Below, one piece after another: positions 14,718 through 23,140 of a DNA stretch of 64,000 nucleotides (position 1 is the first letter of the stretch; every line of letters starts with the position of its first letter). This stretch comes from a phage. Under the pieces are notes generated by a model. It was given only the letters and a program-made list of their open reading frames with translations. It was not told the origin of the DNA and made no database searches. A program made the translations under genes and the position numbers. The stretch is from assembly GCA_011884725.1 (NCBI GenBank), contig GCA_011884725.1_3919.1; one strand, written 5' to 3'.

Positions 14718-15308
14718 TTAAGCTTTGGTCTTAAGTAGGTTCTTAAGTTTTTTAAGATTCATACTCTCATCAAACTTAAAACCAAATCCATTGACATAAT
14801 CAATGAACTCGGATTTCTTACTGAGTGACAATGCGTAACTCATATCAAAGTTCTTGCTTGTTTCTGCGTCTGGACTAGAGTTCACATCAAATGAAATTTC
14901 CGTAGGCTCTTGCTTACTTTTTCTCATATTATCAACCAACAAACATGTATAGTTTGCTGGATAGAAATTTACACTACCATCAACGTAGCTATACTTATTA
15001 TTATGGACAAGGTTGGAAAATACCTTAAGGAATGTTTCTGAGTCGTGGCAAACAAGTTTGAATTGGCTGCTCTCTCCAAGCGCAACTAATGAATACGGAC
15101 TTTCACTATCGAAGTGATAATTTGGATTCGATGCCGTTACTGTTACACGCATCAAGTTATTAGCAATAGTCTTCTGTTTAAAAGAATTTTGAACATAGTG
15201 AAGACCTCTATCACACTGATTGACTAGCTCTTTAAGTAGGTCATTTGCATAAGGTGAGTTAATTGATACAGAGCCATCACTATTGTAATTAAAACTTACT
15301 GTTAACAT
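14718..15308 (-). CDS. hypothetical protein
   Basis: 196-aa ORF. Confidence 0.65.
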   Translation of the reverse strand: MLTVSFNYNSDGSVSINSPYANDLLKELVNQCDRGLHYVQNSFKQKTIANNLMRVTVTASNPNYHFDSESPYSLVALGESSQFKLVCHDSETFLKVFSNLVHNNKYSYVDGSVNFYPANYTCLLVDNMRKSKQEPTEISFDVNSSPDAETSKNFDMSYALSLSKKSEFIDYVNGFGFKFDESMNLKKLKNLLKTKA

Positions 15309-15535
15309 TTTTCAGTTCTCCTGCGATTTATAATTTTGCTGCAATAGAGAAACGAAGTAAACTCACTGGAAGAAACCATTAAGTGTTGTTCACTAGATTG
15401 AGCCATTGCCCTGAAATACATTCCAGTCAAAGCATCATAGTGACTATTCTTTCCAATTGAGGTTATATAGCCATGACTCTTTGCAGTTTGATATAAATCT
15501 ATAATATCTGCGATTTCTAATTGGGAACTACACAT
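15302..15535 (-). CDS. hypothetical protein
   Basis: 77-aa ORF. Confidence 0.5.
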   Translation of the reverse strand: MCSSQLEIADIIDLYQTAKSHGYITSIGKNSHYDALTGMYFRAMAQSSEQHLMVSSSEFTSFLYCSKIINRRRTEKC

Positions 15536-15678
15536 AGATAATCCTCTTGTCTTCTGTAATTTTGAAAGAACAGGTACAGACCAATTTCAGAGGATGAATA
15601 GTAGATTAACTCTACCCTTTTTGATTCCTTACAGTGATTGGTATTCTTACCTTTCTTCGGTTTATTTGATTTTCTCAT
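15517..15678 (-). CDS. hypothetical small basic protein
   Basis: ATG at 15678 preceded by AAGGAGA; the listed 15699 start lacks an RBS. Confidence 0.35.
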   Translation of the reverse strand: MRKSNKPKKGKNTNHCKESKRVELIYYSSSEIGLYLFFQNYRRQEDYLCVVPN

Positions 15679-15772
15679 TAAGTCTCCTTTGTAGAACAAG
15701 GCAGACCTACAGCTTTAACTAAGATGGTACAGTAATCCATACAACAAGTCAAGAACTATTGCAAGTTAAAAA

Positions 15773-15797
15773 AGTTGTTGACAAAGTACTTGACAAG
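15773..15797. promoter_or_regulatory. conserved dual-TTGACA motif in divergent promoter region
   Basis: GTTGACAAAGTACTTGACAAGGTG; a 23/24-identical copy lies at 56832-56856 in the other divergent intergenic region. Confidence 0.55.
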
Positions 15798-15927
15798 GTG
15801 TAGGCTTATAAATACTTAGAAGATAACTTAAAAGGTTCCTCTAAAAAGGCTATTTAAACAGATATCTTTCTGGATATCTATCTTTTATCTTAAAAGCCTT
15901 TTAAGAGGTCTTATAAGAGGCATACCA

Positions 15928-16299
15928 ATGAAAAACAGAACAAACAAAGGCCAGTTTAAAAAAGGCCAGTCTGGAAACCCATCTGGAAGACCGAAAGGCT
16001 CACGTAACAAAAGTTCACTCGTAAAAGCTCAACTGACCATTGATAATTCTGCTGAGTTTGCTGCAAAGTTGTTTGAAGCGATTGTTACAAGGGACGCTGC
16101 TAAGCTTGCAGAGTTCGGGTTAAACACAGACGATGTAACCATCAAGAGCATGATTGAAGTCGGTAAAACCATCATGACTCACTCAGCAGGTGAGATGAAA
16201 GCAATTGCAGCAGACACTAAGAAGACCCCTGATAACGGTGGTCAGTCTCAGACAGATAACAAACCAACGTTCTCTGCTGTTGCAACCCTCAAAAAATAA
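15928..16299 (+). CDS. hypothetical protein with basic Gly/Pro-rich N-terminus
   Basis: 123 aa; KGQSGNPSGRPKGSRNK motif, possibly nucleic-acid binding; family not identified. Confidence 0.6.
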   Translation: MKNRTNKGQFKKGQSGNPSGRPKGSRNKSSLVKAQLTIDNSAEFAAKLFEAIVTRDAAKLAEFGLNTDDVTIKSMIEVGKTIMTHSAGEMKAIAADTKKTPDNGGQSQTDNKPTFSAVATLKK

Positions 16300-16311
16300 T
16301 TTTAAAAGGTG

Positions 16312-16341
16312 TTGACAGACTCTACAAAGTTGCTCTAAAGT
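16312..16341 (+). promoter_or_regulatory. possible promoter
   Basis: TTGACA (16312-16317) with TAAAGT-like -10. Confidence 0.35.
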
Positions 16342-16380
16342 CTGTCACATCAAACAACAAATGAGAGAAGAGAGTAAAAT

Positions 16381-17796
16381 ATGAGCGAATTATTTAAACA
16401 TGCGCACCTTCATGCAGGTCGAACTGAAAATGGTGCTGTAAACCATACTTCATCAATGTCTGCTCTTGTAGACTTTTACAAAGCTGCTGGTTCAAGCCGT
16501 AGCAATGTAGAAATCTTACCAGACCTGTTCTACAAAGCTTTGCGTGAGGATGTTGATGTTGCAGTTCGTATTTTACTGCATATGCGAGATGTACGAGAAG
16601 GTATGGGTGAGCGTAAAGCCTTCAGAACTGTTTTACTTCAAGCGATTGAAGACAAAGTTTTAGAGCCTACGCAGGTTCTTCGCATTATGGATAAGATTGC
16701 AGAACTTGGTCGTTTTGATGACTTCAAAATCTTTGTAGGTACTCGTTTCGAGACAGATGCCTTCAAGCATTTAGAAGCAGCATTACTAGACCCTGCAACA
16801 GCAGGTTTGGCAGCTAAGTGGTTACCACGAGTCAAACCACGTCATAAGCAGTTTGTAAAACGTTTCTGCAAGTTTGCCAACTTGAGCGAGAAAGAGTACC
16901 GCACACTGTTGTCTGCACTATCTGATACAGTTGAGCAAAAAATCTCTGCTAATGAGTTTGGTAAGATTGACTACAGTAAGATTCCTTCACTTGCTGCTGC
17001 ACGCTACCAAAAACTGTTTAACCGTAAAGATGGAGAGCGATACAAAGCTTACATCGAGTCCTTATCAAAGGGTGAGGCTAAGATTAATGCTGGTGCTGTT
17101 TACCCATACGATGTGATTAAATCTGTCAAGCATGGTAATGCAGATGTTGCTAATGAGCAGTGGAAAGCACTACCAAACTGGATGGCAGAAGGTGAAAACA
17201 TCTTGTGTATGTCTGATGTATCAAGTTCAATGTCTTGGGTGAATTTTGGCTCCATTACTGCTCTGGATATTGGTGTATCACTTGCCTTGTATGTAGCAGA
17301 ACGCAATACAGGCTGCTTTAAGAATGAGTTGATGGTTTATTCAACAAACCCTCACTTCATCGAACTGAGTGGTGATTTACGAAACCGTCATCGTCAGGTG
17401 ATGCGACACGTTGAATATGGCTCAACTAACTTACAAGCAGCTTTTGACCGCATTCTTGAAACAGGTAAAAGAAACAACTTGACTCAGAAAGATATGCCAA
17501 GTAAGCTTATCATCTTCTCCGATATGGAGTTCAATCAGGTTGATGGAGCTAACGGTCGTACAAACTTTGAAGCAATTCAGAGTAAGTACAAAAAAGCTGG
17601 ATATGAGATGCCACAACTGGTATTCTGGTACTTAGCAAACCGTAATGGTACTTGCGAAGTGTCTGTTAAGGATAACGGTGTAGCAATGGTATCTGGTTTC
17701 TCTCCAGCCACTTTAAAAGCTCTGCTTGGTGGTGAGAAGTTTGACCCAATCAGCGTAATGCTCAAAGCAGTAATGATTGACCGTTATATCTGGTAA
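16381..17796 (+). CDS. vWA-domain protein with helical N-domain (possible TROVE/Ro60-like architecture)
   Basis: 471 aa; C-terminal vWA with MIDAS-like DVSSSMS (DxSxS) and downstream T and D positions (IIFSDMEF); helical N-domain of about 270 aa; sits directly upstream of the tRNA array. Confidence 0.7.
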   Translation: MSELFKHAHLHAGRTENGAVNHTSSMSALVDFYKAAGSSRSNVEILPDLFYKALREDVDVAVRILLHMRDVREGMGERKAFRTVLLQAIEDKVLEPTQVLRIMDKIAELGRFDDFKIFVGTRFETDAFKHLEAALLDPATAGLAAKWLPRVKPRHKQFVKRFCKFANLSEKEYRTLLSALSDTVEQKISANEFGKIDYSKIPSLAAARYQKLFNRKDGERYKAYIESLSKGEAKINAGAVYPYDVIKSVKHGNADVANEQWKALPNWMAEGENILCMSDVSSSMSWVNFGSITALDIGVSLALYVAERNTGCFKNELMVYSTNPHFIELSGDLRNRHRQVMRHVEYGSTNLQAAFDRILETGKRNNLTQKDMPSKLIIFSDMEFNQVDGANGRTNFEAIQSKYKKAGYEMPQLVFWYLANRNGTCEVSVKDNGVAMVSGFSPATLKALLGGEKFDPISVMLKAVMIDRYIW

Positions 17797-17814
17797 AAAG
17801 TTTTAAAAAGGGTA

Positions 17815-17843
17815 TTGACAATGTGTTTAATACCCTTTAATAT
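17815..17843 (+). promoter_or_regulatory. promoter of tRNA array
   Basis: TTGACA (17815-17820), 17-nt spacer, TAATAT (17838-17843); a second TTGACA lies at 17906. Confidence 0.6.
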
Positions 17844-17961
17844 GTTCTACATAGAAACGAAATGAGAGCTTTTCTAAGATACTGAAAAATATTTTAAAAA
17901 AGTTCTTGACAACCACTAAAAAATAATGTTAAAGTGGTTACATAGAGTTTGAAAAGTTTAT

Positions 17962-18038
17962 CTCTGTTTAGCTCAGCTTGGTAGAGCGTTCCGTTTGGGG
18001 CGGTAAGGCCGGAGGTTCAAGTCCTCCAACAGAGACCA
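17962..18038 (+). tRNA. tRNA-Pro (anticodon TGG)
   Basis: 7-bp acceptor CTCTGTT/AACAGAG, T-arm GGAGGTTCAAGTCCTCC, anticodon loop TTTGGGG, encoded CCA. Confidence 0.75.
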
Positions 18039-18045
18039 AATTAAT

Positions 18046-18123
18046 GTTCCAGTAGACAAAATGGTAAAGTCACCACTCTTTCAAAGTGGATATCTGAGGG
18101 TTCAAATCCCTTCTGGAACGCCA
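18046..18123 (+). tRNA. tRNA-Glu (anticodon TTC)
   Basis: Acceptor GTTCCAG/CTGGAAC, anticodon stem CCACT/AGTGG, loop CTTTCAA, T-loop TTCAAAT, CCA. Confidence 0.75.
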
Positions 18124-18126
18124 GTT

Positions 18127-18205
18127 TTGACAGAAGACCAATTACAGCAAACTTAATCTTATTCATCTGAAGGTAAATCGGACAAAGAAGAGATTTGGTC
18201 TGGTC
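18127..18205 (+). ncRNA. inter-tRNA structured element E1
   Basis: CAGAAGACC-box, helix AGACCAA (18135-18141) / TTGGTCT (18195-18201), TTACAGCAAA box inside. Confidence 0.5.
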
Positions 18206-18214
18206 ATTAAGAAT

Positions 18215-18291
18215 TGCGGGTATAGAGAAAGGGCGTCTCACATGTCTCATTAGCATGGTATCGGCAGGTTCGACTCCTGCACCCGCCTCCA
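18215..18291 (+). tRNA. tRNA-Met-like (anticodon CAT) with 1:72 mismatch
   Basis: Anticodon stem CATGT/GCATG, loop CTCATTA, T-arm GCAGGTTCGACTCCTGC, 3' ACCCGCC-T-CCA; 5' end TGCGGGT leaves position 1 unpaired. Confidence 0.6.
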
Positions 18292-18294
18292 AAT

Positions 18295-18365
18295 TTACAG
18301 AAGACCGTTTACAGCAAAATTGAATGAAATTTTTAGCGGAAAAATTGAAAGATACGGTCTGGTAA
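18295..18365 (+). ncRNA. inter-tRNA structured element E2
   Basis: Helix AGACCGT (18302-18308) / ACGGTCT (18354-18360); compensatory to E1; TTACAGCAAAA box. Confidence 0.5.
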
Positions 18366-18375
18366 TACTAAACAT

Positions 18376-18449
18376 GGTTAGGAAGCACATAAGGTATGTG
18401 CGGTCGCCTGTTAAGCGAATGGCACAGGGTTCGAATCCCTGACTAACCG
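18376..18449 (+). tRNA. tRNA-Asn (anticodon GTT)
   Basis: Acceptor GGTTAGG, D-stem GCAC/GTGC, anticodon loop CTGTTAA, T-arm CAGGGTTCGAATCCCTG; no encoded CCA. Confidence 0.65.
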
Positions 18450-18461
18450 CAAAATTGAAAT

Positions 18462-18549
18462 GTGTCGTTATCCCGTAGATGGTAGCGGTGGGGACTGTAA
18501 ATCCCTTGTCATTGAGACTCGGTAGGTTCGACTCCTACACGGCACACCA
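18462..18549 (+). tRNA. tRNA-Tyr (anticodon GTA), long variable arm
   Basis: Acceptor GTGTCGT/ACGGCAC, anticodon loop CTGTAAA, long variable arm, T-arm GTAGGTTCGACTCCTAC, CCA. Confidence 0.7.
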
Positions 18550-18554
18550 ATAAA

Positions 18555-18631
18555 GGCTATGTAGTTTAACTGGAGAAAATACTCCCCTGTCACGGGAGAT
18601 GATGTGAGTTCAAGTCTCATCGTAGCCGCCA
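18555..18631 (+). tRNA. tRNA-Asp (anticodon GTC)
   Basis: Acceptor GGCTATG/CGTAGCC, anticodon stem CTCCC/GGGAG, loop CTGTCAC, T-loop TTCAAGT, CCA. Confidence 0.75.
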
Positions 18632-18685
18632 AATTATAATAAGTATTTCAAAATGATGTTTTGAGAGGGCTATTTAGCCCCTCCC

Positions 18686-18716
18686 TTAAAGAGTTCTTAC
18701 GAGTATTCTTTAAAGG
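18686..18716 (+). ncRNA. hairpin with conserved TTCTTACGAG loop, copy 1
   Basis: TTAAAGAGTTCTTACGAGTATTCTTTAAAGG; second copy at 22027-22056 has a different but still complementary stem. Confidence 0.45.
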
Positions 18717-18795
18717 AGCAGAAGACCAAATACAGCAAGAATGTATGATATTTTCAAGCCAATCCAATTTTGAAAAAATTTAAAACTTGGTCTGG
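18717..18795 (+). ncRNA. inter-tRNA structured element E3
   Basis: CAGAAGACC box, helix AGACCAA (18723-18729) / TTGGTCT (18787-18793), ATACAGCAAG box. Confidence 0.5.
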
Positions 18796-18804
18796 CTCAA
18801 CAAA

Positions 18805-18939
18805 TTTACAGAAGACCGTTTACAGCAAAACTTAAACAATCTATTTCTCGGTAAAGAAAAGGCGAAGGTTCGATTCCTTCACTCGGCAGATGTCGAGTTG
18901 GTGTAATGGTAGCACTTAAGATGATAAACAACGGTCTGG
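18805..18939 (+). ncRNA. element E4 enclosing a tRNA-like module
   Basis: Helix AGACCGTT (18813-18820) / AACGGTCT (18930-18937); inside: T-arm GAAGGTTCGATTCCTTC, hairpin ACTCGGC-AGAT-GTCGAGT, D-arm-like GTGTAATGGTAGCAC. The order is 3'-half before 5'-half. Confidence 0.45.
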
Positions 18940-18940
18940 T

Positions 18941-19084
18941 AATTATCTTTGTAGATAAGTTATTAAGCTTACCTGTGAGTATGCGACCACAAAGGGTGAA
19001 AGGGTAAATTCTAGATTTAAACCCAAAAAGGCACATCGCTACAGACCTTAAGCAAGTCTGGGTAGCTTATCTACAAAGATAATT
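18941..19084 (+). ncRNA. structured RNA closed by a 19-bp perfect helix
   Basis: AATTATCTTTGTAGATAAG (18941-18959) is the exact reverse complement of CTTATCTACAAAGATAATT (19066-19084); inner hairpins include CAGAC/GTCTG. Confidence 0.5.
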
Positions 19085-19088
19085 TAAT

Positions 19089-19164
19089 GGAAGTGTAGCA
19101 GAATGGTGATGCGGCAGACTTTTAATCTGACAGGCGATGGGTTCGAATCCCTCCACTTCTACCA
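19089..19164 (+). tRNA. tRNA-Lys (anticodon TTT)
   Basis: Acceptor GGAAGTG/CACTTCT (G1.U72), anticodon loop CTTTTAA, T-loop TTCGAAT (weak T-stem), CCA. Confidence 0.65.
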
Positions 19165-19168
19165 ATAT

Positions 19169-19245
19169 GGTTCAGTCGCAGATAAGGTAATGCAAGGGTC
19201 TCATAAGCCCTATGAATGTGGGTTCGATTCCCATCTGAACCTCCA
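19169..19245 (+). tRNA. tRNA with CAT anticodon (elongator Met or Ile2-type)
   Basis: Acceptor GGTTCAG/CTGAACC fully paired, anticodon stem AGGGT/GCCCT, loop CTCATAA, T-loop TTCGATT, CCA. Confidence 0.65.
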
Positions 19246-19246
19246 A

Positions 19247-19322
19247 GCTGGTATAGTTAAGAAGGTTATAACACTCCCCTGATAAGGGAACATCGGTGGT
19301 TCGATTCCACCTACCAGTACCA
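19247..19322 (+). tRNA. tRNA-Ile (anticodon GAT)
   Basis: Acceptor GCTGGTA/TACCAGT, anticodon loop CTGATAA, T-arm GGTGGTTCGATTCCACC, CCA. Confidence 0.7.
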
Positions 19323-19337
19323 ATTTCAATAAAGTTG

Positions 19338-19366
19338 TTGACATTGAGATGTGACTACTTTATAGT
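19338..19366 (+). promoter_or_regulatory. internal promoter within tRNA array
   Basis: TTGACA (19338-19343), 17-nt spacer, TATAGT (19361-19366). Confidence 0.6.
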
Positions 19367-19568
19367 AACCTTAGTTTTCGTTGCGTAGCGTCTATTTTGC
19401 AAATTTAAAATAAATGCAAACGACAATGTTTTTCTGGCAGTAGCTTGATAGGCTAAACACCAGTGAGGTCTTCCAATCCCTCATCAAAGAATTTGGCGTA
19501 CTCGCCCACGGTATGATTAATAAGGTGGGCATCTTTAAGGGCTTTCTAAGAGAGTCTTTAAAGATAAT

Positions 19569-19645
19569 GCACCCTTAGTTCAATTGGATAGAGCAACGGT
19601 CTTCTAAATCGTTAGTTACAGGTTCGAATCCTGTAGGGTGTACCA
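19569..19645 (+). tRNA. tRNA-Arg (anticodon TCT)
   Basis: Acceptor GCACCCT/AGGGTGT, D-arm TAGTTCAATTGGATAGAGC, anticodon loop CTTCTAA, T-loop TTCGAAT, CCA. Confidence 0.75.
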
Positions 19646-19787
19646 AATAGTTAGCAGATTACTTAGACGGCCTTAGCGGGTCTTCCTGTAGGGAGGTGGT
19701 CTGTATCTCATGTTTTCCAGAACATGTAAATAATCTGAGAAGAAGCTTGACAGTGTTGAGATAACAGGGTAAGCTTCGAATTATAAT

Positions 19788-19870
19788 ATGGGACGATGTT
19801 AAGACTCTAAGGCATGAGCAACGGCCTCCAAAACCGTTTCAAAGGGGTTCAACTCCTCCGTCCCATGCCA
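19788..19870 (+). tRNA. atypical tRNA (anticodon probably CCA, Trp?)
   Basis: Acceptor ATGGGAC/GTCCCAT, T-loop TTCAACT, CCA; anticodon stem AACGG/CCGTT encloses 9 nt (CCTCCAAAA); D region is 4-8 nt longer than usual. Confidence 0.45.
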
Positions 19871-19883
19871 AAGTCTTATTAGG

Positions 19884-19971
19884 GGTAGGTAGCGGCTAAT
19901 GGTAGCCAAACTGTCTTGAAAACAGTTGCCACTGTAGAGATACGGTGAGGGTTCGACTCCTTTACTTACCG
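19884..19971 (+). tRNA. tRNA-Ser (anticodon TGA), long variable arm
   Basis: Acceptor GGTAGGT/ACTTACC, anticodon stem ACTGT/ACAGT, loop CTTGAAA, long variable arm, T-loop TTCGACT. Confidence 0.65.
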
Positions 19972-20126
19972 CCTAATAAGATTTACTCCGTCCATGCTTG
20001 TTCGCATTGTCGGTTTATCCCTCGTGTATTGTCGTACACTGTCAAAGCACCTAGTAGGTGTCACGGAGAAGAGATAATATCAAGCTCTCCAAAGGTTCTA
20101 GTCACCGGATTAAACAAGACTATGCA

Positions 20127-20151
20127 AAGACCTATTTAGGTCTTTTTAGAG
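20127..20151 (+). terminator. intrinsic terminator inside tRNA array
   Basis: AAAGACC-TATTTA-GGTCTTT followed by TTTAG. Confidence 0.5.
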
Positions 20152-20227
20152 GGCTTCTAAGGTTATTAGTCGCTTGTTGTGGAACCTTGTTGCTTAGGTT
20201 CTTAGAAGTTCTCTAAAAAGATTTAAT

Positions 20228-20305
20228 GGGAGATTGACGGTAATTGGTAAACCTACCATCCTTAGAAGTTGGTGTTTGAGGGTTCGAATCCCTTGTCTCC
20301 TACCA
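20228..20305 (+). tRNA. tRNA, class I shape, anticodon TAG (Leu?)
   Basis: Acceptor GGGAGAT/GTCTCCT, anticodon loop CTTAGAA, 5-nt variable loop, T-loop TTCGAAT, A73, CCA. Confidence 0.5.
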
Positions 20306-20312
20306 AATTAAT

Positions 20313-20388
20313 GCAGGTGTAGCAAAATGGTTATGCGGCTGACTCTTAATCAGTAAGACGATGGGTTCAATTCCCTCCACCTGTACCA
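20313..20388 (+). tRNA. tRNA-Lys (anticodon CTT)
   Basis: Acceptor GCAGGTG/CACCTGT, anticodon stem GCTGA/TCAGT, loop CTCTTAA, T-loop TTCAATT, CCA. Confidence 0.6.
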
Positions 20389-20394
20389 AACATT

Positions 20395-20470
20395 GGGGAT
20401 GTAGTTTACATGGTTAAAACATAAGTTTTGCAAACTTAAGTACAGGGTTCAATTCCCTGCTTCTCCACCA
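20395..20470 (+). tRNA. tRNA-Cys (anticodon GCA)
   Basis: Anticodon stem AAGTT/AACTT, loop TTGCAAA, T-arm CAGGGTTCAATTCCCTG, CCA. Confidence 0.65.
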
Positions 20471-20476
20471 ATTAGT

Positions 20477-20551
20477 GCATCCATAGTTTAAACGGGAAAA
20501 TTACAGTCTTCCAAACTGAGGTTGAGGGTTCGATTCCCTCTGGATGCTCCA
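20477..20551 (+). tRNA. tRNA-Gly (anticodon TCC)
   Basis: Acceptor GCATCCA/TGGATGC, anticodon loop CTTCCAA, T-loop TTCGATT, CCA. Confidence 0.65.
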
Positions 20552-20557
20552 AACAAT

Positions 20558-20634
20558 GCTGCTTTCGTATAATTGGCTATTACACATCCCTTGTAAGGAT
20601 GGAAATGCAGGTTCGAGTCCTGTGAGCAGCACCA
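20558..20634 (+). tRNA. tRNA-Thr (anticodon TGT)
   Basis: Acceptor GCTGCTT/GAGCAGC, anticodon stem CATCC/GGATG, loop CTTGTAA, T-loop TTCGAGT, CCA. Confidence 0.7.
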
Positions 20635-20635
20635 A

Positions 20636-20730
20636 TTCAGAGGTCAAGTGAAAGACCGCTTTGAGTCAACTGAAGACCGTAACAAATACCACGGAGTTGA
20701 GTTAGCGGCACAACTTCAGACCTCTTTCAT
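20636..20730 (+). ncRNA. structured spacer element between tRNA-Thr and tRNA-Val
   Basis: Closing helix CAGAGGTC (20638-20645) / GACCTCTT (20722-20729); contains a GAAGACCGT box as in E2/E4; no T-loop. Confidence 0.4.
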
Positions 20731-20805
20731 ACTCGCTTAGTTTATATGGTAAAACATCACCCTTACAAGATGAAGAAAAAGGTTCAAGTCCTTTAGTGAG
20801 TACCA
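20731..20805 (+). tRNA. tRNA-Val (anticodon TAC)
   Basis: Acceptor ACTCGCT/AGTGAGT, anticodon loop CTTACAA, T-arm AAAGGTTCAAGTCCTTT, CCA. Confidence 0.6.
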
Positions 20806-20806
20806 T

Positions 20807-20884
20807 GTTCCAGTATCCCAATTGGCAGAGGATGCAAGCTCAAACCTTGTATTAGTGACGGTTCGAATCCGTCTTGGAACACCA
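20807..20884 (+). tRNA. tRNA, class I shape, anticodon CAA (Leu?)
   Basis: Acceptor GTTCCAG/TTGGAAC, anticodon stem GCAAG/CTTGT, loop CTCAAAC, T-arm GACGGTTCGAATCCGTC, A73, CCA. Confidence 0.5.
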
Positions 20885-20889
20885 ATTTT

Positions 20890-20965
20890 GCAGGATTAGT
20901 TCAAATGGAAAGAGCAACAGTCTACGAAGCTGTTAATAGGGGTTCGAATCCCTTATCCTGCGCCA
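20890..20965 (+). tRNA. tRNA-Arg (anticodon ACG)
   Basis: Acceptor GCAGGAT/ATCCTGC, D-stem GTTC/GAGC, anticodon stem ACAGT/GCTGT, loop CTACGAA, T-loop TTCGAAT, CCA. Confidence 0.75.
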
Positions 20966-20982
20966 GATAAAAAGGTGATACT

Positions 20983-21225
20983 ATGCAAACATTAACAGTA
21001 GTTGAACATGAAAACTGTGAGAGTATTGAGTTTGTCAGGGTCATTGGTGTTGAACACCACATTTTCTTAAAAGTGGGATACTTATGTGACCCCGCTAGAG
21101 TAGAAAGATTTATACGTGATTGTTTTGGTGGTAGACATCTGAAGAGTGTTATTTTTGAGACAGTTTTACCAGAAGGTTTAGAAACGAATAATAACATTTA
21201 CCTCCTTACGAGGATTAGACAATGA
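20983..21225 (+). CDS. hypothetical protein embedded in tRNA array
   Basis: 80-aa ORF; RBS AAAGGTGA 7 nt upstream of ATG. Confidence 0.5.
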   Translation: MQTLTVVEHENCESIEFVRVIGVEHHIFLKVGYLCDPARVERFIRDCFGGRHLKSVIFETVLPEGLETNNNIYLLTRIRQ

Positions 21226-21779
21226 GATACTTAAAGTATGCTTCATGGATTTTCTTAGCTTTGTTAGAGCCATTTGCAGCAATCTTAGCAGTTATCTTAG
21301 CACCTTTTGTAGTTCCATTCTACAGTGAGAAGAAAGGACACTTACCTTTCGGGTTCAGATGGATGGAGACATATGACAACCCAATTGATGGTGATGAAGG
21401 TCACGTTAAAAGATGGGCTAATATTAGATGGATTGGTAAACTAGGTGTCTACATGCAAAGAGTCGGATGGCTCTGGAGAAACAAAGCTTATAACTTCTCT
21501 TACCATGTATTAGGAAGAGATGTAAGAGATGTTACTAAGTGGAAAGGTAATATCAACGTAAGTTCTAACCCTGAAGATAATCAGACTGGTTATCTCCTAA
21601 TGTGGAACAGTAATGCTTGGGGATTATTCGCTTTTATCCCATCAATTAAAGTCTTCGGTAAACAGTTTTACTGGAGAATTTATGTTGGATGGAAACTTAA
21701 AAGTGTTGTCCCAGAAGAAAGAGCATTCTCAAGGGAAAGAGTTATGTTGGCATTCTTTATTCATCCACTGAGAAAGTAA
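21222..21779 (+). CDS. hypothetical membrane protein embedded in tRNA array
   Basis: 185 aa; N-terminal TM segment (WIFLALLEPFAAILAVILAPFVVPF); start overlaps previous stop; RBS GAGGA. Confidence 0.6.
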   Translation: MRYLKYASWIFLALLEPFAAILAVILAPFVVPFYSEKKGHLPFGFRWMETYDNPIDGDEGHVKRWANIRWIGKLGVYMQRVGWLWRNKAYNFSYHVLGRDVRDVTKWKGNINVSSNPEDNQTGYLLMWNSNAWGLFAFIPSIKVFGKQFYWRIYVGWKLKSVVPEERAFSRERVMLAFFIHPLRK

Positions 21780-21787
21780 AGATTTAA

Positions 21788-21863
21788 AGGGGATTAGTTT
21801 ACAAGGTTAAAACCTCGGTCTTTGAAATCGAAGAAGTTGGTTCAATTCCAACATCCCCCGCCA
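21788..21863 (+). tRNA. tRNA-Gln (anticodon TTG)
   Basis: Anticodon stem TCGGT/ATCGA, loop CTTTGAA, T-arm GTTGGTTCAATTCCAAC, 3' ATCCCCC-G-CCA; position 1 (A) unpaired with C72. Confidence 0.6.
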
Positions 21864-21865
21864 AT

Positions 21866-21944
21866 GCTCCATTACTCCAATTGGCAGAGAGGCCAGACTT
21901 AAAATCTGTGTTATGTATCGGTTCGAATCCGATATGGAGTACCA
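21866..21944 (+). tRNA. tRNA, class I shape, anticodon TAA (Leu?)
   Basis: Acceptor GCTCCAT/ATGGAGT, anticodon loop CTTAAAA, T-arm ATCGGTTCGAATCCGAT, A73, CCA. Confidence 0.5.
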
Positions 21945-21949
21945 AATTT

Positions 21950-22025
21950 AGCGGTATAGCATAACTGGCAATGCAGCAGTCTCTGAAGCTGTCCTATTAA
22001 GGTTCAAATCCTTATGCCGCTGCCA
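21950..22025 (+). tRNA. tRNA-Gln (anticodon CTG)
   Basis: Acceptor AGCGGTA/TGCCGCT, D-stem GCAT/ATGC, anticodon stem GCAGT/GCTGT, loop CTCTGAA, T-loop TTCAAAT, CCA. Confidence 0.6.
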
Positions 22026-22026
22026 C

Positions 22027-22056
22027 TTCTAAGGATTCTTACGAGAGTCCTTAAAT
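22027..22056 (+). ncRNA. hairpin with conserved TTCTTACGAG loop, copy 2
   Basis: TTCTAAGGATTCTTACGAGAGTCCTTAAATG; stem TAAGGATTC/GAGTCCTTA. Confidence 0.45.
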
Positions 22057-22132
22057 GTGGCCTTATCATAAATGGTAATGACCCATGCTGTGAACATGGT
22101 CTATACGGGTTCAAATCCCGTAGGTCACCCCA
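22057..22132 (+). tRNA. tRNA-His (anticodon GTG)
   Basis: Acceptor GTGGCCT/AGGTCAC, anticodon stem CCATG/CATGG, loop CTGTGAA, T-arm ACGGGTTCAAATCCCGT, CCA. Confidence 0.7.
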
Positions 22133-22138
22133 ATTTAT

Positions 22139-22214
22139 AGTCCAAGTAGCTTATATGGTTAAAGCGCGTGTCTGAAAAACATGAGAAGAGGGTTCAAATC
22201 CCACTGGACTACCA
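22139..22214 (+). tRNA. tRNA-Phe (anticodon GAA)
   Basis: Acceptor AGTCCAA/CTGGACT, anticodon stem CGTGT/ACATG, loop CTGAAAA, T-loop TTCAAAT (short T-stem), CCA. Confidence 0.6.
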
Positions 22215-22230
22215 ATTTCAAAGGTGCTTA

Positions 22231-22965
22231 ATGAAAGAGATGACAGAACAAGGTAAGGAGATTTTCAATCTCTTAAAAACCGGTAAAGGGTTTTCTAACC
22301 CCCTTATTACTGGTGCAGCAGTTCTCGGTGGAACCGTAGCTGCCTCTACATCACTTGTAAGCTCTATTAGCTCTGTATCAGACCCTACAGTAAAGGATAA
22401 GCTTGTTGCTGCTGGACTTACAACAGTTCTGCTTAACAGCTTTACCACGAGTCTGACAAGCACTACATCAACTACCAAAACACTAACAGATTACGGTCAA
22501 AAGTCCATTGATGAGTTTTCATCACGTATGCAGGTAGCAAAAGGTTACTCTAATGTTATGGGTGCAGCAGGTGAACAAGTTGGCTGTACACCATTTAGTG
22601 GTATTATGGGTGTTGCTACAGAGTATGGTCAAAAAACTATTGATACGATTAACAGTGTACTAGATAGTGTTAATGGTGTGTTAAGTGACTTACAAGATGC
22701 TATTGACAAAGGTCTTGATACTATTTCTGATTTAGCTGAGCAAGCTGTTAGTAAGATTAATGAAGGTATTTCAAAAATTACAGCTTATGCAGATGAAGTT
22801 GTGCAGATGATTGAAGAAGAAGCTGCTCTTATTGCAGAGTACCTTAAAACGAATATCAATGGGTTCTTAGCAGGTATCTTACCAGACTGGTTTGATGATG
22901 CTTGTAAAACTGGTGTAATTGACACTATTGCAACACCAGAAATGAAGAACGCATTACAGAAATAA
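22231..22965 (+). CDS. hypothetical protein (Ser/Thr-rich N-half, helical C-half)
   Basis: Listed ORF starts at 22168 inside tRNA-Phe; in-frame ATG at 22231 with RBS AAAGG chosen. Confidence 0.55.
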   Translation: MKEMTEQGKEIFNLLKTGKGFSNPLITGAAVLGGTVAASTSLVSSISSVSDPTVKDKLVAAGLTTVLLNSFTTSLTSTTSTTKTLTDYGQKSIDEFSSRMQVAKGYSNVMGAAGEQVGCTPFSGIMGVATEYGQKTIDTINSVLDSVNGVLSDLQDAIDKGLDTISDLAEQAVSKINEGISKITAYADEVVQMIEEEAALIAEYLKTNINGFLAGILPDWFDDACKTGVIDTIATPEMKNALQK

Positions 22966-22967
22966 AT

Positions 22968-23060
22968 GGAAGATTAACCCTAAAAGGTAAGGGAGCAGTT
23001 TGCTAAACTGCCAGTAGCTGAGAAATCGGTGTACCAGTTCAAGTCTGGTATCTTCCTCCA
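22968..23060 (+). tRNA. tRNA-Ser (anticodon GCT), long variable arm
   Basis: Acceptor GGAAGAT/ATCTTCC, D-stem CCC/GGG, anticodon stem GCAGT/ACTGC, loop TTGCTAA, long variable arm, T-arm ACCAGTTCAAGTCTGGT, CCA. Confidence 0.7.
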
Positions 23061-23064
23061 ATTT

Positions 23065-23140
23065 GAATCCGTGACAGAAACGGCTATGTGCCTGTCTGCA
23101 AAACAGGTTTATAAGGGTTCGAGTCCCTTCGGATTCTCCA
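23065..23140 (+). tRNA. tRNA with GCA anticodon (second Cys-like)
   Basis: Acceptor GAATCCG/CGGATTC, anticodon stem CCTGT/ACAGG, loop CTGCAAA, T-arm AAGGGTTCGAGTCCCTT, CCA; atypical D-arm. Confidence 0.5.

What the first reader, a model, noticed from the sequence alone, without database searches (positions are those of the whole stretch)
18821..18929. tRNA-like module with permuted half order inside element E4
Inside E4 a canonical T-arm (GAAGGTTCGATTCCTTC) is followed by a 7-bp hairpin ACTCGGC-AGAT-GTCGAGT and then a D-arm-like GTGTAATGGTAGCAC. The order is 3'-half (T-arm, acceptor 3' strand) before 5'-half (acceptor 5' strand, D-arm), with no anticodon arm. This could be a circularly permuted or split tRNA, a tRNA-like domain as in YrlA or tmRNA, or a decayed tRNA remnant.
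Basis: seen in the sequence. Interest (0 to 1): 0.7.

Follow-up and report, generated by a model that had tools for sequence, protein, structure and literature searches.

The report
Phage Y-RNA-like tRNA mimic beside Ro60-like gene
The "scrambled tRNA" is real and is the tRNA-mimicking domain of a small non-coding RNA of the Y RNA (YrlA) type. It is one of four related RNAs embedded in a Felix O1-like phage's tRNA gene cluster, directly downstream of a gene for a Ro60-like RNA-binding protein that a preprint reports as a counter-defence gene.

Summary
T-arm 18864-18880, a 7-bp acceptor-like hairpin 18881-18898 and D-arm 18901-15 lie in permuted order with no anticodon loop.

The window is a Felixounavirus. 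The module sits inside a 137-nt element, E4 (18806-18942), which is closed by a two-part basal stem and carries a conserved UUACAGCAA motif.

- **Conservation.** In about 250 related phages the module keeps this order. The acceptor hairpin shows fully compensatory changes across three genera.
- **Topology.** The order V-T-AS-D closed by a basal stem is that of YrlA, the bacterial Y RNA that mimics a circularly permuted tRNA.
- **Partner gene.** The gene 1 kb upstream (16381-17796; DUF2828+DUF7788) is predicted to fold as a full-length Ro60. Its 12 best PDB matches are all Ro60.
- **Wider family.** In distant phages and MAGs that encode DUF2828 homologues, RNAs with the same handle cluster within 700 nt of that gene, on its strand. 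The handle is a G-started stem, NNN-C(A/C)GCAA, then the stem's partner followed by UG. About a quarter of these RNAs carry permuted tRNA-like modules.
- **Mini versions.** E1-E3 in the window have the handle but no tRNA part.

The RNA fails Rfam's YrlA threshold and lacks the GNCGAA motif, so I call it a new variant of a known kind. RNA expression, protein binding and function are inferred, not shown.

The parts
16381..17796 (+). Gene for a 471-aa Ro60-like protein (Pfam DUF2828 + DUF7788; PHROG 850 'RNA-binding protein'). It is the presumed protein partner of the RNAs.
   Evidence: Pfam and PHROGs hits. AlphaFold2 model: pLDDT 90.2, pTM 0.89. Foldseek against PDB: the 12 best hits are all Ro60/Rsr, E 6e-9 to 6e-7, about 500-550 aligned columns, TM up to 0.65. 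A weak profile hit to Xenopus Ro60 falls at the MIDAS DxSxS motif. The Bas63 homologue gp130 is reported as Ro60-like and as a counter to the Ppl defence (preprint 10.1101/2024.10.10.617714).
17815..17935 (+). Two sigma-70-like promoter matches (17815-17843 and 17906-17935) just upstream of the first tRNA. They are the likely start of the tRNA/Y-like RNA transcript.
   Evidence: 10 of 12 matches each. These are consensus matches only, and the number of promoter-like sites in the region is not above shuffles.
18128..18206 (+). E1: a mini handle RNA with no tRNA part, lying between tRNA-Glu and tRNA-Met. Outer helix UGAC/GUCA, internal loop AGA/G, helix AGACCAA/UUGGUCU, motif UUACAGCAA.
   Evidence: Motif search: 4 hits against 0.31 expected. 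R1 hit 46.1 bits, E 5e-7. Regex scan.
18295..18365 (+). E2: a mini handle RNA between tRNA-Met and tRNA-Asn. Helices UUAC/GUAA and AGACCGU/ACGGUCU, motif UUACAGCAA.
   Evidence: R1 hit 51.9 bits, E 2e-8.
18716..18798 (+). E3: a mini handle RNA with an internal hairpin. Helices GAGC/GCUC and AGACCAA/UUGGUCU, motif AUACAGCAA.
   Evidence: The outer and inner helices covary among E1-E4.
18806..18942 (+). E4: the full element that contains the finding. P0 is UUAC 18806-09 with GUAA 18939-42. The internal loop is AGA 18810-12 opposite G18938. P1 is AGACCGU 18813-19 with ACGGUCU 18931-37. The tRNA-like cargo lies between the P1 strands.
   Evidence: RNAalifold consensus matches the manually drawn structure. 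MFE fold. R1 model.
18820..18828 (+). Conserved single-stranded motif UUACAGCAA, immediately 3' of the 5' strand of the basal stem. Family consensus is NNN-C(A/C)GCAA. It is the presumed determinant for binding the protein and occupies the position of GNCGAA in YrlA.
   Evidence: Invariant in 11 Ounavirinae sequences. Present in 103 + strand elements in 52 of 75 distant loci. The positional analogy to YrlA comes from PMC4201824.
18840..18862 (+). Variable-arm-like hairpin (V): UCU-A-UUUCU[CGGUAA]AGAAA-AGG.
   Evidence: It is poorly conserved in Mooglevirus, where it is shifted.
18864..18880 (+). T-arm GAAGG-UUCGAUU-CCUUC.
   Evidence: Stem sequence invariant in Ounavirinae, with one loop substitution (G to A in Sf14). 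The stem covaries in distant members.
18881..18898 (+). Acceptor-stem-like hairpin (AS): ACUCGGC-AGAU-GUCGAGU.
   Evidence: Fully compensatory variants exist: ACACGU-UACG-GCGUGU in Suspvirus and the Sf phages, and ACCCUUC-GCCAAACA-GAAGGGU in Moogle and HP1.
18899..18915 (+). U8, G9 and the D-arm GUGU-AAUGGUA-GCAC.
   Evidence: Only the D-loop position after GG varies.
19038..19066 (+). Possible fifth, minimal handle-like hairpin, GCUAC-AGAC-[CUUAAGCAA]-GUCU-GG-GUAGC, inside the long conserved hairpin RNA at 18941-19084.
   Evidence: Read. Relatives have AAACC-[CUUUAGCAA]-GGUUU. This part is tentative.

Best explanation
E4 (18806-18942, + strand) is a modular non-coding RNA of the Y RNA / YrlA type with two modules.

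**Handle.** The first module is a basal handle shared with E1-E3: outer helix P0, an AGA/G internal loop, helix P1, and the single-stranded motif UUACAGCAA. By analogy with the Ro60-binding module of Y RNAs, I infer that it binds the Ro60-like protein encoded 1 kb upstream (16381-17796).

**Cargo.** The second module is a tRNA mimic in the order variable arm, T-arm, closed acceptor-like hairpin, D-arm. This is a circularly permuted tRNA whose anticodon arm is replaced by the handle. I infer that it folds into a tRNA-like L shape. The T-loop/D-loop elbow and the 12-bp acceptor/T minihelix would then be available to host factors that recognise tRNA. Candidates are RNase P, TruB, Dus and the CCA-adding enzyme, and possibly an exoribonuclease or a tRNA-directed defence factor.

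**Production.** The RNAs lie flush between tRNA genes on the same strand, downstream of two promoter-like sites. They are most likely made as part of the tRNA-array transcript and released by RNase P and the 3' trimming of the flanking tRNAs.

**Role.** The resulting RNP would gate or tether the Ro60-like protein, as Y RNAs do. For the Bas63 homologue, a preprint reports that the protein counters the Ppl defence system.

**What is shown and what is inferred.**
- Shown: the anatomy, the conservation and covariation, the Ro60 fold of the neighbouring protein (a predicted model), and the genomic linkage of handle RNAs to DUF2828 genes.
- Inferred: expression as a stable RNA, protein binding, the L-shaped fold, processing, and any role in counter-defence.
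For: 1. **Topology.** The order V-T-AS-D closed by a stem formed from the 5' and 3' ends is that of YrlA (PMC4201824). [quoted passage not shown] ARAGORN calls a tRNA across E4 only after in-silico permutation at the AS loop.

2. **Conservation within the subfamily.** 246 of 253 phage records cover at least 80% of the region. In 11 Ounavirinae sequences, 100% of 297 pair cells are standard pairs. Three AS pairs change on both sides, in 12 cells, and 0 of 500 shuffles reach this. RNAalifold predicts the same helices independently. G.U pairs and the sense of the T-loop fix the + strand.

3. **Protein partner.** The neighbouring gene gives a confident model (pLDDT 90). Its 12 best PDB matches are all Ro60 or Rsr over the full length. 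The same similarity was reported independently for Bas63 gp130.

4. **Family-level linkage to the gene.**
   - A covariance model trained only on Ounavirinae E4 finds 38 hits in 76 sources; 37 are on the gene's strand and many abut the gene. On that alignment 94% of cells pair, against 59% in shuffles and about 40% when partners are slid; 26 of 27 pairs change on both sides.
   - A handle regex finds 103 + strand hits, 17 - strand hits and 8 in shuffles, in 52 of 75 loci.
   - 77 of 96 non-genic hits lie within 700 nt of the gene, 0.76 per kb against 0.03 per kb, p = 2e-44.
   - Handle RNAs also occur next to the gene in loci where no tRNA was found (L017, L018, L021, L027).
   - The same clustering is seen in genome and MAG contigs.

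5. **Match to Rfam YrlA.** RF02553 gives significant sub-threshold hits to homologous modules: L031 39.2 bits (E 4e-5), L081 38.9 bits (E 5e-5, full-length match) and L081 28.7 bits.

6. **tRNA-type tertiary signature.** The 15-48 Levitt pair is G-C or A-U in 11 of 12 distant modules and covaries. U8, A14, G18, G19 and the T-loop UUCRANY are present in E4.

7. **Negative control.** The T5 tRNA region has no model hit (best E 0.56) and no handle hit within its tRNA array; the only three handle matches in the 50-kb stretch lie in coding regions outside it.
Against: - No expression, end-mapping or binding data exist for these RNAs. Linkage to the protein is correlative.
- E4 does not reach Rfam's YrlA threshold; there was no hit at E <= 10.
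- E4 lacks the YrlA/Y RNA motif GNCGAA(N)G and has UUACAGCAA instead.
- The protein is not matched by Pfam TROVE. Its Ro60 similarity rests on a predicted fold (TM 0.55-0.65, 11-16% identity).
- In the window's own lineage the 15-48 pair is A-C or A-A, which is non-canonical.
- A clear anticodon-stem equivalent is weak: at most 4 bp (AUCU 18839-42 with AGAU 18919-22), and it competes with the base of the V hairpin.
- The folding-energy z-score of the module is not significant.
- The alignment used was fitted to the model and contains a few likely false hits.
- The Ppl phenotype concerns the protein only and comes from a preprint.
Confidence: 0.75

Rival explanations
1. E4 is a circularly permuted or split gene for a working tRNA, as in Cyanidioschyzon. 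The transcript would be circularised or cut and rejoined to give a decoding tRNA.
For: The order is 3' half before 5' half, with a perfect 7-bp acceptor pairing. After in-silico permutation ARAGORN -i reports a tRNA. Mooglevirus relatives and four distant members carry N-CCA directly after the acceptor 3' strand.
Against: There is no anticodon stem-loop. ARAGORN's 'anticodon' lies next to a 50-nt pseudo-intron that is really the handle. The position of the anticodon arm is occupied by P1/P0 and the CAGCAA motif, which E1-E3 and many elements with no tRNA part also have. The array already encodes tRNAs for 19 of the 20 amino acids, and a Trp-like tRNA lies at 19790-19864. No bacterial or phage pathway for maturing permuted tRNAs is known (general knowledge).
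Confidence: 0.03
2. E4 is a decayed remnant of the junction between two adjacent tRNA genes: the T-arm and 3' end of one, and the 5' end and D-arm of the next. It would have no function of its own.
For: The element lies in a dense tRNA array where genes are 1-12 nt apart. Chen et al. warn that dimeric tRNAs can mimic YrlA. The encoded CCA in some AS loops suggests that such a junction between tandem copies of one tRNA is the evolutionary origin.
Against: The two acceptor strands pair with each other and covary across three genera, with 100% of cells paired. The element is kept in about 250 genomes. It is enclosed by a conserved, covarying handle. Homologous modules occur next to DUF2828 genes in unrelated phages. 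No relative has an intact tRNA at this position.
Confidence: 0.03
3. E4 is a two-piece, tmRNA-like or otherwise aminoacylatable RNA. RNase P would cut in the AS loop, the 3' end would gain or retain CCA, and the RNA would be charged and act on ribosomes or in a transfer reaction.
For: A 7-bp AS stacked on a 5-bp T stem is the RNase P minihelix. M. smegmatis YrlA, which has a 7-bp AS, is cut by RNase P and receives CCA. N-CCA follows the acceptor 3' strand in 5 of 15 family modules against about 1 in 64 expected by chance.
Against: The window's AS loop is only AGAU and has no CCA. Suspvirus and the Sf phages have a 6-bp stem closed by a UACG tetraloop, which is a poor RNase P substrate. There is no tag ORF, resume codon or pseudoknots. 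ARAGORN tmRNA and Rfam tmRNA models are negative.
Confidence: 0.07
4. E1-E4 are cis-acting processing or regulatory signals of the tRNA precursor, such as RNase entry sites, insulators or attenuators. Alternatively they are small mobile inverted-repeat elements. In neither case would they be trans-acting RNAs that partner the protein.
For: They lie flush between tRNAs. They are repeated four times, each with terminal inverted repeats.
Against: The same handle clusters next to the DUF2828 gene in loci where no tRNA was found in the roughly 11 kb examined. Strand bias is strong, 103 against 17 hits. G.U pairs and stem covariation show selection at the RNA level. The T5 array lacks them.
Confidence: 0.1

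Closest known systems
YrlA (Y RNA-like A; Rfam RF02553), the tRNA-mimicking Y RNA of Salmonella, Mycobacterium, many other bacteria and mycobacteriophages
   Same: It has the same two-module design. A stem formed by the 5' and 3' ends is followed by a conserved purine-rich single-stranded motif after the 5' strand. Then come the variable arm, T-arm, closed acceptor-like stem-loop and D-arm, which together make a circularly permuted tRNA without an anticodon loop. It is encoded near a Ro60-type protein gene on the same strand and often next to tRNA genes. Acceptor-stem length varies. The 7-bp acceptor stem matches that of M. smegmatis YrlA, which RNase P cleaves.
   Different: The handle motif is NNN-C(A/C)GCAA with a 3' ...UG tail, not GNCGAA(N)G. 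The partner protein belongs to DUF2828/DUF7788, not Pfam TROVE. E4 scores below the Rfam threshold. Four or five handle RNAs occur per genome, interleaved with a 26-tRNA array. The cargo can be exchanged: it may be absent, a permuted tRNA mimic, a normal-order tRNA mimic, or other modules.
Phage Ro60 / Y RNA-like pairs (mycobacteriophages, Caulobacter phage CcrColossus, Bacillus phage G; Thermus phage phiLo Ro60 with Yrl1 and Yrl2, PMC12135203)
   Same: A phage encodes a Ro60-fold protein together with adjacent small RNAs that have a 5'-3' stem and an internal loop bearing a short conserved motif. phiLo Ro60 is the best structural match to the window's protein.
   Different: Those proteins are recognisable TROVE proteins and their RNAs carry the CGAA motif. 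The phiLo Yrls are not described as tRNA mimics. None of these RNAs is embedded in a tRNA array. None of these phages infects enterobacteria.
Deinococcus radiodurans Yrn1 / metazoan Y RNAs
   Same: They share the modular logic of a protein-binding stem plus an effector module. In Yrn1 the effector module has tRNA-like features in the non-permuted order, which is also seen in some DUF2828-linked elements (L046, L054).
   Different: Both strands of their Ro-binding helix are conserved (GGUCCGA/UUGACC type, with a bulged C). Here a GGUCU/AGACC helix is conserved only within Ounavirinae and lies with the opposite polarity relative to the RNA ends.
Stable tRNA-like RNAs of phage tRNA clusters (T5 RNA1, RNA2 and RNA3 as annotated in AY543070; T4 species 1 and 2 RNAs, from my own knowledge)
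   Same: They are small stable RNAs of unknown function, encoded between phage tRNA genes and presumably released by tRNA processing.
   Different: They show no match to the E4 model or to the handle. No Ro60-like gene was annotated in the 50-kb T5 stretch examined.
Permuted tRNA genes (Cyanidioschyzon merolae) and two-piece (permuted) tmRNA genes
   Same: At the gene level, the 3' half (T-arm and acceptor 3' strand) precedes the 5' half (acceptor 5' strand and D-arm).
   Different: Those genes yield RNAs with an anticodon arm or a tag reading frame, and the RNAs are aminoacylated. E4 has neither, and its 'open' end is a conserved protein-type handle.

Membership tests
YrlA (Rfam RF02553) | Stem-loops in the order V - T - AS - D, enclosed by a stem made of the RNA's 5' and 3' ends | tested here: met
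   The definition comes from PMC4201824 and 10.1101/312249.
YrlA (Rfam RF02553) | tRNA-type tertiary nucleotides: T-loop UUCRANY, D-loop GG, U8, A14, and a covarying 15-48 Levitt pair | tested here: inconclusive
   T-loop, GG, U8, A14 and A21 are all present. The 15-48 pair is A-C or A-A in Ounavirinae, but canonical and covarying in 11 of 12 distant family members.
YrlA (Rfam RF02553) | GNCGAA(N0-1)G motif in the 5' strand of the Ro60-binding module | tested here: not met
   No G.CGAA occurs in 18806-18864. The equivalent position holds UUACAGCAA; the family consensus is C(A/C)GCAA.
YrlA (Rfam RF02553) | Score at or above the Rfam gathering threshold (69 bits) | tested here: not met
   There is no YrlA hit for the window at the gathering threshold or at E <= 10 on 18600-19120. 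Distant homologous modules score 29-39 bits.
YrlA (Rfam RF02553) | Encoded within about 4 kb of a Ro60 orthologue, on the same strand | tested here: met
   E4 starts 1010 nt downstream of the stop codon of a Ro60-fold protein gene on the + strand. However, the protein is a DUF2828 member, not an annotated TROVE protein.
YrlA (Rfam RF02553) | Bound by Ro60/Rsr in vivo; modified by TruB and DusA | not testable with these tools
   This needs RIP or EMSA and modification mapping.
Ro60 / TROVE proteins (for the neighbouring gene) | HEAT-repeat ring plus a C-terminal vWA domain with a MIDAS motif | tested here: met
   The AF2 model and Foldseek give Ro60 as ranks 1-12 over the full length. DxSxS aligns with the Xenopus Ro60 MIDAS motif.
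Ro60 / TROVE proteins (for the neighbouring gene) | Sequence-level membership (Pfam TROVE, PF05731) | tested here: not met
   Pfam reports only DUF2828 and DUF7788. phmmer against PDB finds nothing. The profile hit to Ro60 has E 0.73.
Canonical tRNA (RF00005) | Cloverleaf in 5'-to-3' order with an anticodon arm; score >= 29 bits | tested here: not met
   Only the T-arm aligns, at 14.9 bits. ARAGORN reports none.
tmRNA, including two-piece/permuted tmRNA (RF04321) | tRNA-like domain plus a tag reading frame and pseudoknots | tested here: not met
   ARAGORN tmRNA search is negative on the window and on E4. Rfam gives no hit.
Permuted tRNA genes (Cyanidioschyzon type) | Both halves together encode a complete tRNA including the anticodon arm; matured through a circular intermediate | tested here: not met
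   No anticodon stem-loop is present. The junction region is the shared handle. A circular intermediate cannot be tested here.

The most novel reading that the evidence does not exclude
DUF2828 Ro60-like proteins and the 'CAGCAA-handle' RNAs may form a widespread, so far undescribed phage ribonucleoprotein system. Arrays of two to five small RNAs would share one protein-binding handle and carry interchangeable cargo. The cargo includes circularly permuted tRNA mimics, a third of which have a genomically encoded N-CCA at the acceptor end. These mimics would be released by the tRNA-processing machinery. They would act as decoys or tethers for host tRNA-recognising factors, and this activity would underlie the reported counter-defence function of the protein.
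Probability: 0.3. Interest if true: 0.85.

Novelty: new variant of a known kind. Interest (0 to 1): 0.65.

Why it matters
What the tRNA-like domain of bacterial Y RNAs binds, and what Ro60-Y RNA particles do outside Deinococcus, are open questions. This work points to a concrete set of candidate Y-like RNAs in Felix O1-type phages of E. coli and Salmonella, which are genetically tractable. For one such phage (Bas63), the neighbouring Ro60-like gene already has a reported phenotype: it counters the Ppl defence system. The authors of that preprint could only guess that 'some tRNA genes' might be Y RNAs. These coordinates make the idea directly testable by deleting E1-E4, mutating the handle and pulling down the protein.

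The work also has three further consequences:
- It links the large uncharacterised DUF2828 protein family to a recognisable RNA partner, through a new handle motif that current Rfam models miss.
- It shows that phage tRNA arrays can hide non-tRNA RNAs.
- It explains at least one spurious tRNA annotation, the 129-nt 'tRNA-Thr-GGT' in the ASO1B record.

Tried and rejected
- **Promoter reading of the repeated motif.** TTTACA/TTGACA followed by 17 nt has no consistent -10 element. The '-35' bases covary with the downstream GUAA/GUCA/GCUC, which indicates RNA pairing. Rejected.
- **Protein-coding reading.** Some records annotate small hypothetical ORFs at the homologous region in relatives, and the window has ORFs at 18787-18906 (+) and 18806-19036 (-). 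Indels of 1, 2, 4, 5 and 9 nt among relatives, together with the compensatory base changes, argue against coding. Rejected.
- **tRNA-Thr(GGU) annotation in phage ASO1B.** The call joins the 3' strand of E3 to the T-arm of E4. Rejected as a tRNAscan-SE artefact.
- **Missing tRNA-Trp idea.** I first considered that the module might be the array's missing tRNA-Trp. A separate Trp-like tRNA lies at 19790-19864. Dropped.
- **MAFFT alignment of the 15 distant modules (A3).** It mis-aligned the arms and was not used. I used model-based alignment instead (A5).
- **Direct sequence evidence for Ro60.** phmmer against PDB found nothing and NCBIfam gave nothing useful. The similarity is seen only by fold.
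- **Functional clues from neighbouring genes.** The flanking ORFs are of unknown function or are structural or lysis genes.
- **Literature.** Searches found no description of these RNAs, and no paper that links DUF2828 to Ro60. One review (PMC10870794) and the Bas63 genome record could not be retrieved.
Full report
**1. What the window is**

The 457-nt spacer that holds the finding matches about 250 Ounavirinae genomes: Felixounavirus, Suspvirus and Mooglevirus phages of Escherichia, Salmonella, Shigella and Citrobacter. Most match at 95-99% identity. ARAGORN finds 26 tRNA genes at 17962-23140, all on the + strand, and Rfam confirms 24 of them. The finding lies between tRNA-Asp (ends 18631) and tRNA-Lys (starts 19089).

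**2. The observation**

It is correct.
- The T-arm GAAGG-UUCGAUU-CCUUC is at 18864-18880.
- It is followed directly by ACUCGGC-AGAU-GUCGAGU (18881-18898): 7 bp, one of them G.U.
- Next come U and G (18899-18900).
- Then the D-arm GUGU-AAUGGUA-GCAC (18901-18915).
- Upstream of the T-arm lies a long variable-arm-like hairpin (18840-18862).
- There is no anticodon stem-loop.

A strict pattern scan finds this arrangement once in the window's two strands. Native-order searches find no tRNA or tmRNA. When E4 is opened in silico at the AGAU loop and its outer stem is capped, ARAGORN with its intron option reports a tRNA across all 141 nt and treats the outer stem as a 50-nt 'intron'. The module is therefore a genuine circular permutation of the cloverleaf minus the anticodon loop. 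Its folding energy alone is unremarkable (z = -1.5).

**3. The module is the cargo of a larger repeated element**

The motif AGAAGACYNNNTWCAGCAA occurs four times in the window, against 0.31 expected, and all four copies lie in the tRNA array. Each copy is matched downstream by NNGGUCUGG. This defines four elements:

| Element | Coordinates | Outer helix P0 | Inner positions of P1 |
|---|---|---|---|
| E1 | 18128-18206 | UGAC/GUCA | AA/UU |
| E2 | 18295-18365 | UUAC/GUAA | GU/AC |
| E3 | 18716-18798 | GAGC/GCUC | AA/UU |
| E4 | 18806-18942 | UUAC/GUAA | GU/AC |

All four share the architecture 5'-NNNC[AGA]AGACCNN-(W)UACAGCAA ... NNGGUCU[G]GNNN-3'. The outer 4-bp helix and the two inner positions of the second helix both covary among the copies, as the table shows. 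This indicates RNA pairing rather than a promoter or a DNA-level repeat. Only E4 carries the tRNA-like module. E1-E3 carry short hairpins or almost nothing.

**4. Conservation and covariation**

I aligned E4 from 11 Ounavirinae (A4).
- The T and D stems and the handle are nearly invariant.
- The acceptor-like hairpin exists in three fully compensatory versions: ACUCGGC/GUCGAGU with loop AGAU (Felixounavirus), ACACGU/GCGUGU with loop UACG (Suspvirus and the Sf phages), and ACCCUUC/GAAGGGU with loop GCCAAACA (Moogle, HP1).
- All 297 pair cells are standard pairs. Three pairs change on both sides, in 12 cells, and no shuffle or slid control approaches this.
- RNAalifold predicts the same helices without my input.
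- Indels of 1, 2, 4, 5 and 9 nt rule out a conserved reading frame.
- No relative has a conventional tRNA at this position.

**5. The neighbouring gene**

ORF 16381-17796 (+) lies immediately upstream of the array's promoter-like sites. It matches Pfam DUF2828 + DUF7788 and PHROG 850 'RNA-binding protein'. A model built from 48 homologues is confident (pLDDT 90.2, pTM 0.89). Against the PDB, its 12 best matches are all Ro60 proteins, aligned over about 500-550 columns with E 6e-9 to 6e-7. They are Thermus phage phiLo Ro60, Xenopus and human Ro60, and D. radiodurans Rsr. The next hits are isolated vWA domains. A profile search also touches Xenopus Ro60 weakly at the MIDAS motif.

**6. Comparison with Y RNAs**

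- Chen et al. (PMC4201824) define YrlA as a Ro60-binding stem with a GNCGAA(N)G motif plus stem-loops V, T, AS and D.
- M. smegmatis YrlA has a 7-bp AS. RNase P cleaves it and it then receives CCA.

E4 has this topology, a 7-bp AS, and a Ro60-fold gene 1 kb upstream on the same strand. It differs in three ways: the handle motif is UUACAGCAA, the score against RF02553 is nil for the window, and the protein family is different.

**7. The wider family**

I fetched 75 viral loci that encode DUF2828 homologues of 39-48% identity.

*Permuted modules.* The pattern scan found permuted T-AS-D modules in nine of these loci. All were on the gene's strand and all had different stem sequences.

*Conserved flanks.* Their flanks share a conserved frame: a G-started stem, NNN-C(A/C)GCAA, the cargo, the stem's partner, and then (U/A/C)G followed by an A/U-rich tail.

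*Covariance model.* A model trained only on Ounavirinae E4 (R1) gave 38 hits in 818 kb, 37 of them on the gene's strand. Many directly abut the gene: L041, L044, L054, L068 and L021 just after it, and L016, L022, L031, L035, L036, L066, L073 and L078 just before it. On that alignment 94.3% of cells pair and 26 of 27 pairs change on both sides. One caveat is that the alignment was fitted to the model.

*Handle regex.*
- It gave 103 + strand hits, 17 - strand hits and 8 per shuffle, in 52 of 75 loci.
- 77 of 96 non-genic hits lie within 700 nt of the gene, 0.76 per kb against 0.03 per kb, p = 2e-44.
- Loci with no tRNA in about 11 kb still have handle RNAs next to the gene.
- The same tandem clusters of 2-5 elements appear in genome and MAG contigs.

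*Cargo classes.* About half of the elements are minis under 80 nt. About a quarter carry a T-loop. Others carry a normal-order tRNA mimic or a different conserved module.

*Other support.*
- Rfam's YrlA model gives significant sub-threshold hits to three of the distant permuted modules (29-39 bits).
- In 11 of 12 distant modules the tRNA Levitt pair 15-48 is G-C or A-U and covaries. In the window's lineage it is A-C or A-A.
- Phage T5's tRNA region has its own annotated tRNA-like stable RNAs but no model hit and no handle hit within its tRNA array.

**8. Mechanism**

*Shown:* the anatomy, the RNA-level selection, a Ro60-fold neighbour (from a predicted model), and strong strand-specific linkage of handle RNAs to DUF2828 genes.

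*Inferred:*
- E1-E4 are transcribed with the tRNAs, from promoter-like sites at 17815 and 17906.
- They are released by the processing of the flanking tRNAs. E1 and E2 fill their inter-tRNA spacers almost exactly. The E4 counterpart in L015 lies 2 nt after one tRNA and ends at the base before the next.
- The handle binds the Ro60-like protein.
- The E4 cargo folds as a tRNA-like L and presents the elbow and an acceptor/T minihelix to tRNA-recognising factors.

Whether the AS loop is cut is unclear for this phage, because the loop is only 4 nt (AGAU) and has no CCA. Cutting is plausible for Mooglevirus and for four distant members, in which N-CCA follows the acceptor 3' strand. That makes 5 of 15 modules, against about 1 in 64 expected by chance. 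The encoded CCA also suggests an origin from the junction of two tandem copies of one tRNA gene.

The biological output is unknown. The only functional datum is the Ppl counter-defence phenotype of the protein in Bas63, reported in a preprint.

**9. Rivals**

The rival explanations and my confidence in each are:
- a permuted gene for a decoding tRNA: 0.03;
- a decayed tRNA junction: 0.03;
- an aminoacylatable two-piece RNA: 0.07;
- purely cis-acting processing signals or mobile repeats: 0.10.

Section 7 and the absence of an anticodon arm and of a tag frame argue against the first three. The linkage to the gene in tRNA-free loci argues against the fourth.

**10. Verdict**

The finding is real and is best explained as the tRNA-mimic domain of a YrlA-type Y RNA. 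That RNA belongs to a divergent, apparently undescribed RNA family that partners DUF2828 Ro60-like proteins. Rfam 15 has no model that captures it, and the literature searches found no description of it. I therefore rate it a new variant of a known kind. Interest is moderately high, because it gives a tractable E. coli/Salmonella phage system for the open question of what tRNA-like Y RNA domains do.

Noticed in passing
window 18941-19084 (inner hairpin 19038-19066): This is a long hairpin RNA with a 22-bp stem and compensatory changes among genera. It starts right after E4 and runs to within a few bases of tRNA-Lys. It encloses a minimal handle-like hairpin, GCUAC-AGAC-[CUUAAGCAA]-GUCU-GG-GUAGC; relatives have AAACC-[CUUUAGCAA]-GGUUU. 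It may be a fifth RNA of the same system.
   Followed up: partly
window 19790-19864 (+): This is a tRNA-Trp-like sequence with anticodon loop CUCCAAA and a short acceptor stem. ARAGORN misses it and it falls below Rfam's tRNA threshold, with only 23 bits to tRNA-Sec. It may be the array's otherwise missing Trp tRNA or another mimic.
   Followed up: partly
window 18689-18713 and 22031-22055 (+): The same small hairpin, with a UUACGAG loop and a covarying stem, occurs twice in the tRNA array. One copy lies before E3 and the other before tRNA-His.
   Followed up: no
L001 672-800 (MZ726792, phage ASO1B) = window 18761-18888: A public record annotates a 129-nt 'tRNA-Thr-GGT' here, called by tRNAscan-SE. 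The call joins the 3' strand of E3 (UUGGUCUGG, read as the anticodon) to the T-arm and acceptor 3' strand of E4, so it is an annotation artefact.
   Followed up: yes
L046 4735-4834; L054 4759-4854; L016 3134-3233; L020 150-281; L022 1411-1519; L023 1266-1374; L033 4735-4829: In distant DUF2828 loci the same handle carries other cargo. One type is a normal-order tRNA-like module (D, anticodon and T arms) without an acceptor stem. Another is a separate conserved module containing CCUUUCUGGAGGGGAAAG.
   Followed up: partly
L004/L003 (Moogle, HP1) AS loop; L054 6563; L081 6843 and 9527; L088 2700: In 5 of 15 permuted modules the acceptor 3' strand is followed by N-CCA inside the hairpin loop (for example GCCAAACA). 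This is as expected if RNase P cleavage and 3' trimming produce a CCA-ended two-piece RNA. It could also reflect origin from tandem tRNA genes.
   Followed up: partly
L035 1293-1616; L039 10822-11176; L031 10696-10922: Some DUF2828-encoding phage contigs also carry a permuted tmRNA gene (Rfam 71.7 bits), a standard tmRNA, or a group I intron within a few kb of the gene.
   Followed up: no
L090 (phage T5, AY543070) 15285-18950 of the locus: The T5 tRNA region is annotated with several 'stable RNAs with unknown functions', some described as tRNA-like (RNA1, RNA2, RNA3). They do not match the E4 model or the handle.
   Followed up: partly
L092-L171 (genome contigs), e.g. L106 2670-2976, L113 2691-2886, L098 1677-2916, L107 4449-4725: DUF2828 homologues in MAGs and genomes of very diverse taxa, many of them probably phage or prophage DNA, are flanked by tandem runs of 3-5 handle RNAs on the same strand.
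   Followed up: partly
window 21222-21779 and 22168-22965 (+): Two protein genes of unknown function (DUF7338 and DUF7217) are embedded in the tRNA array. A few relatives (GEP101, S19cd) show the Asp-Lys spacer match split over about 860 bp, which suggests an insertion there.
   Followed up: no
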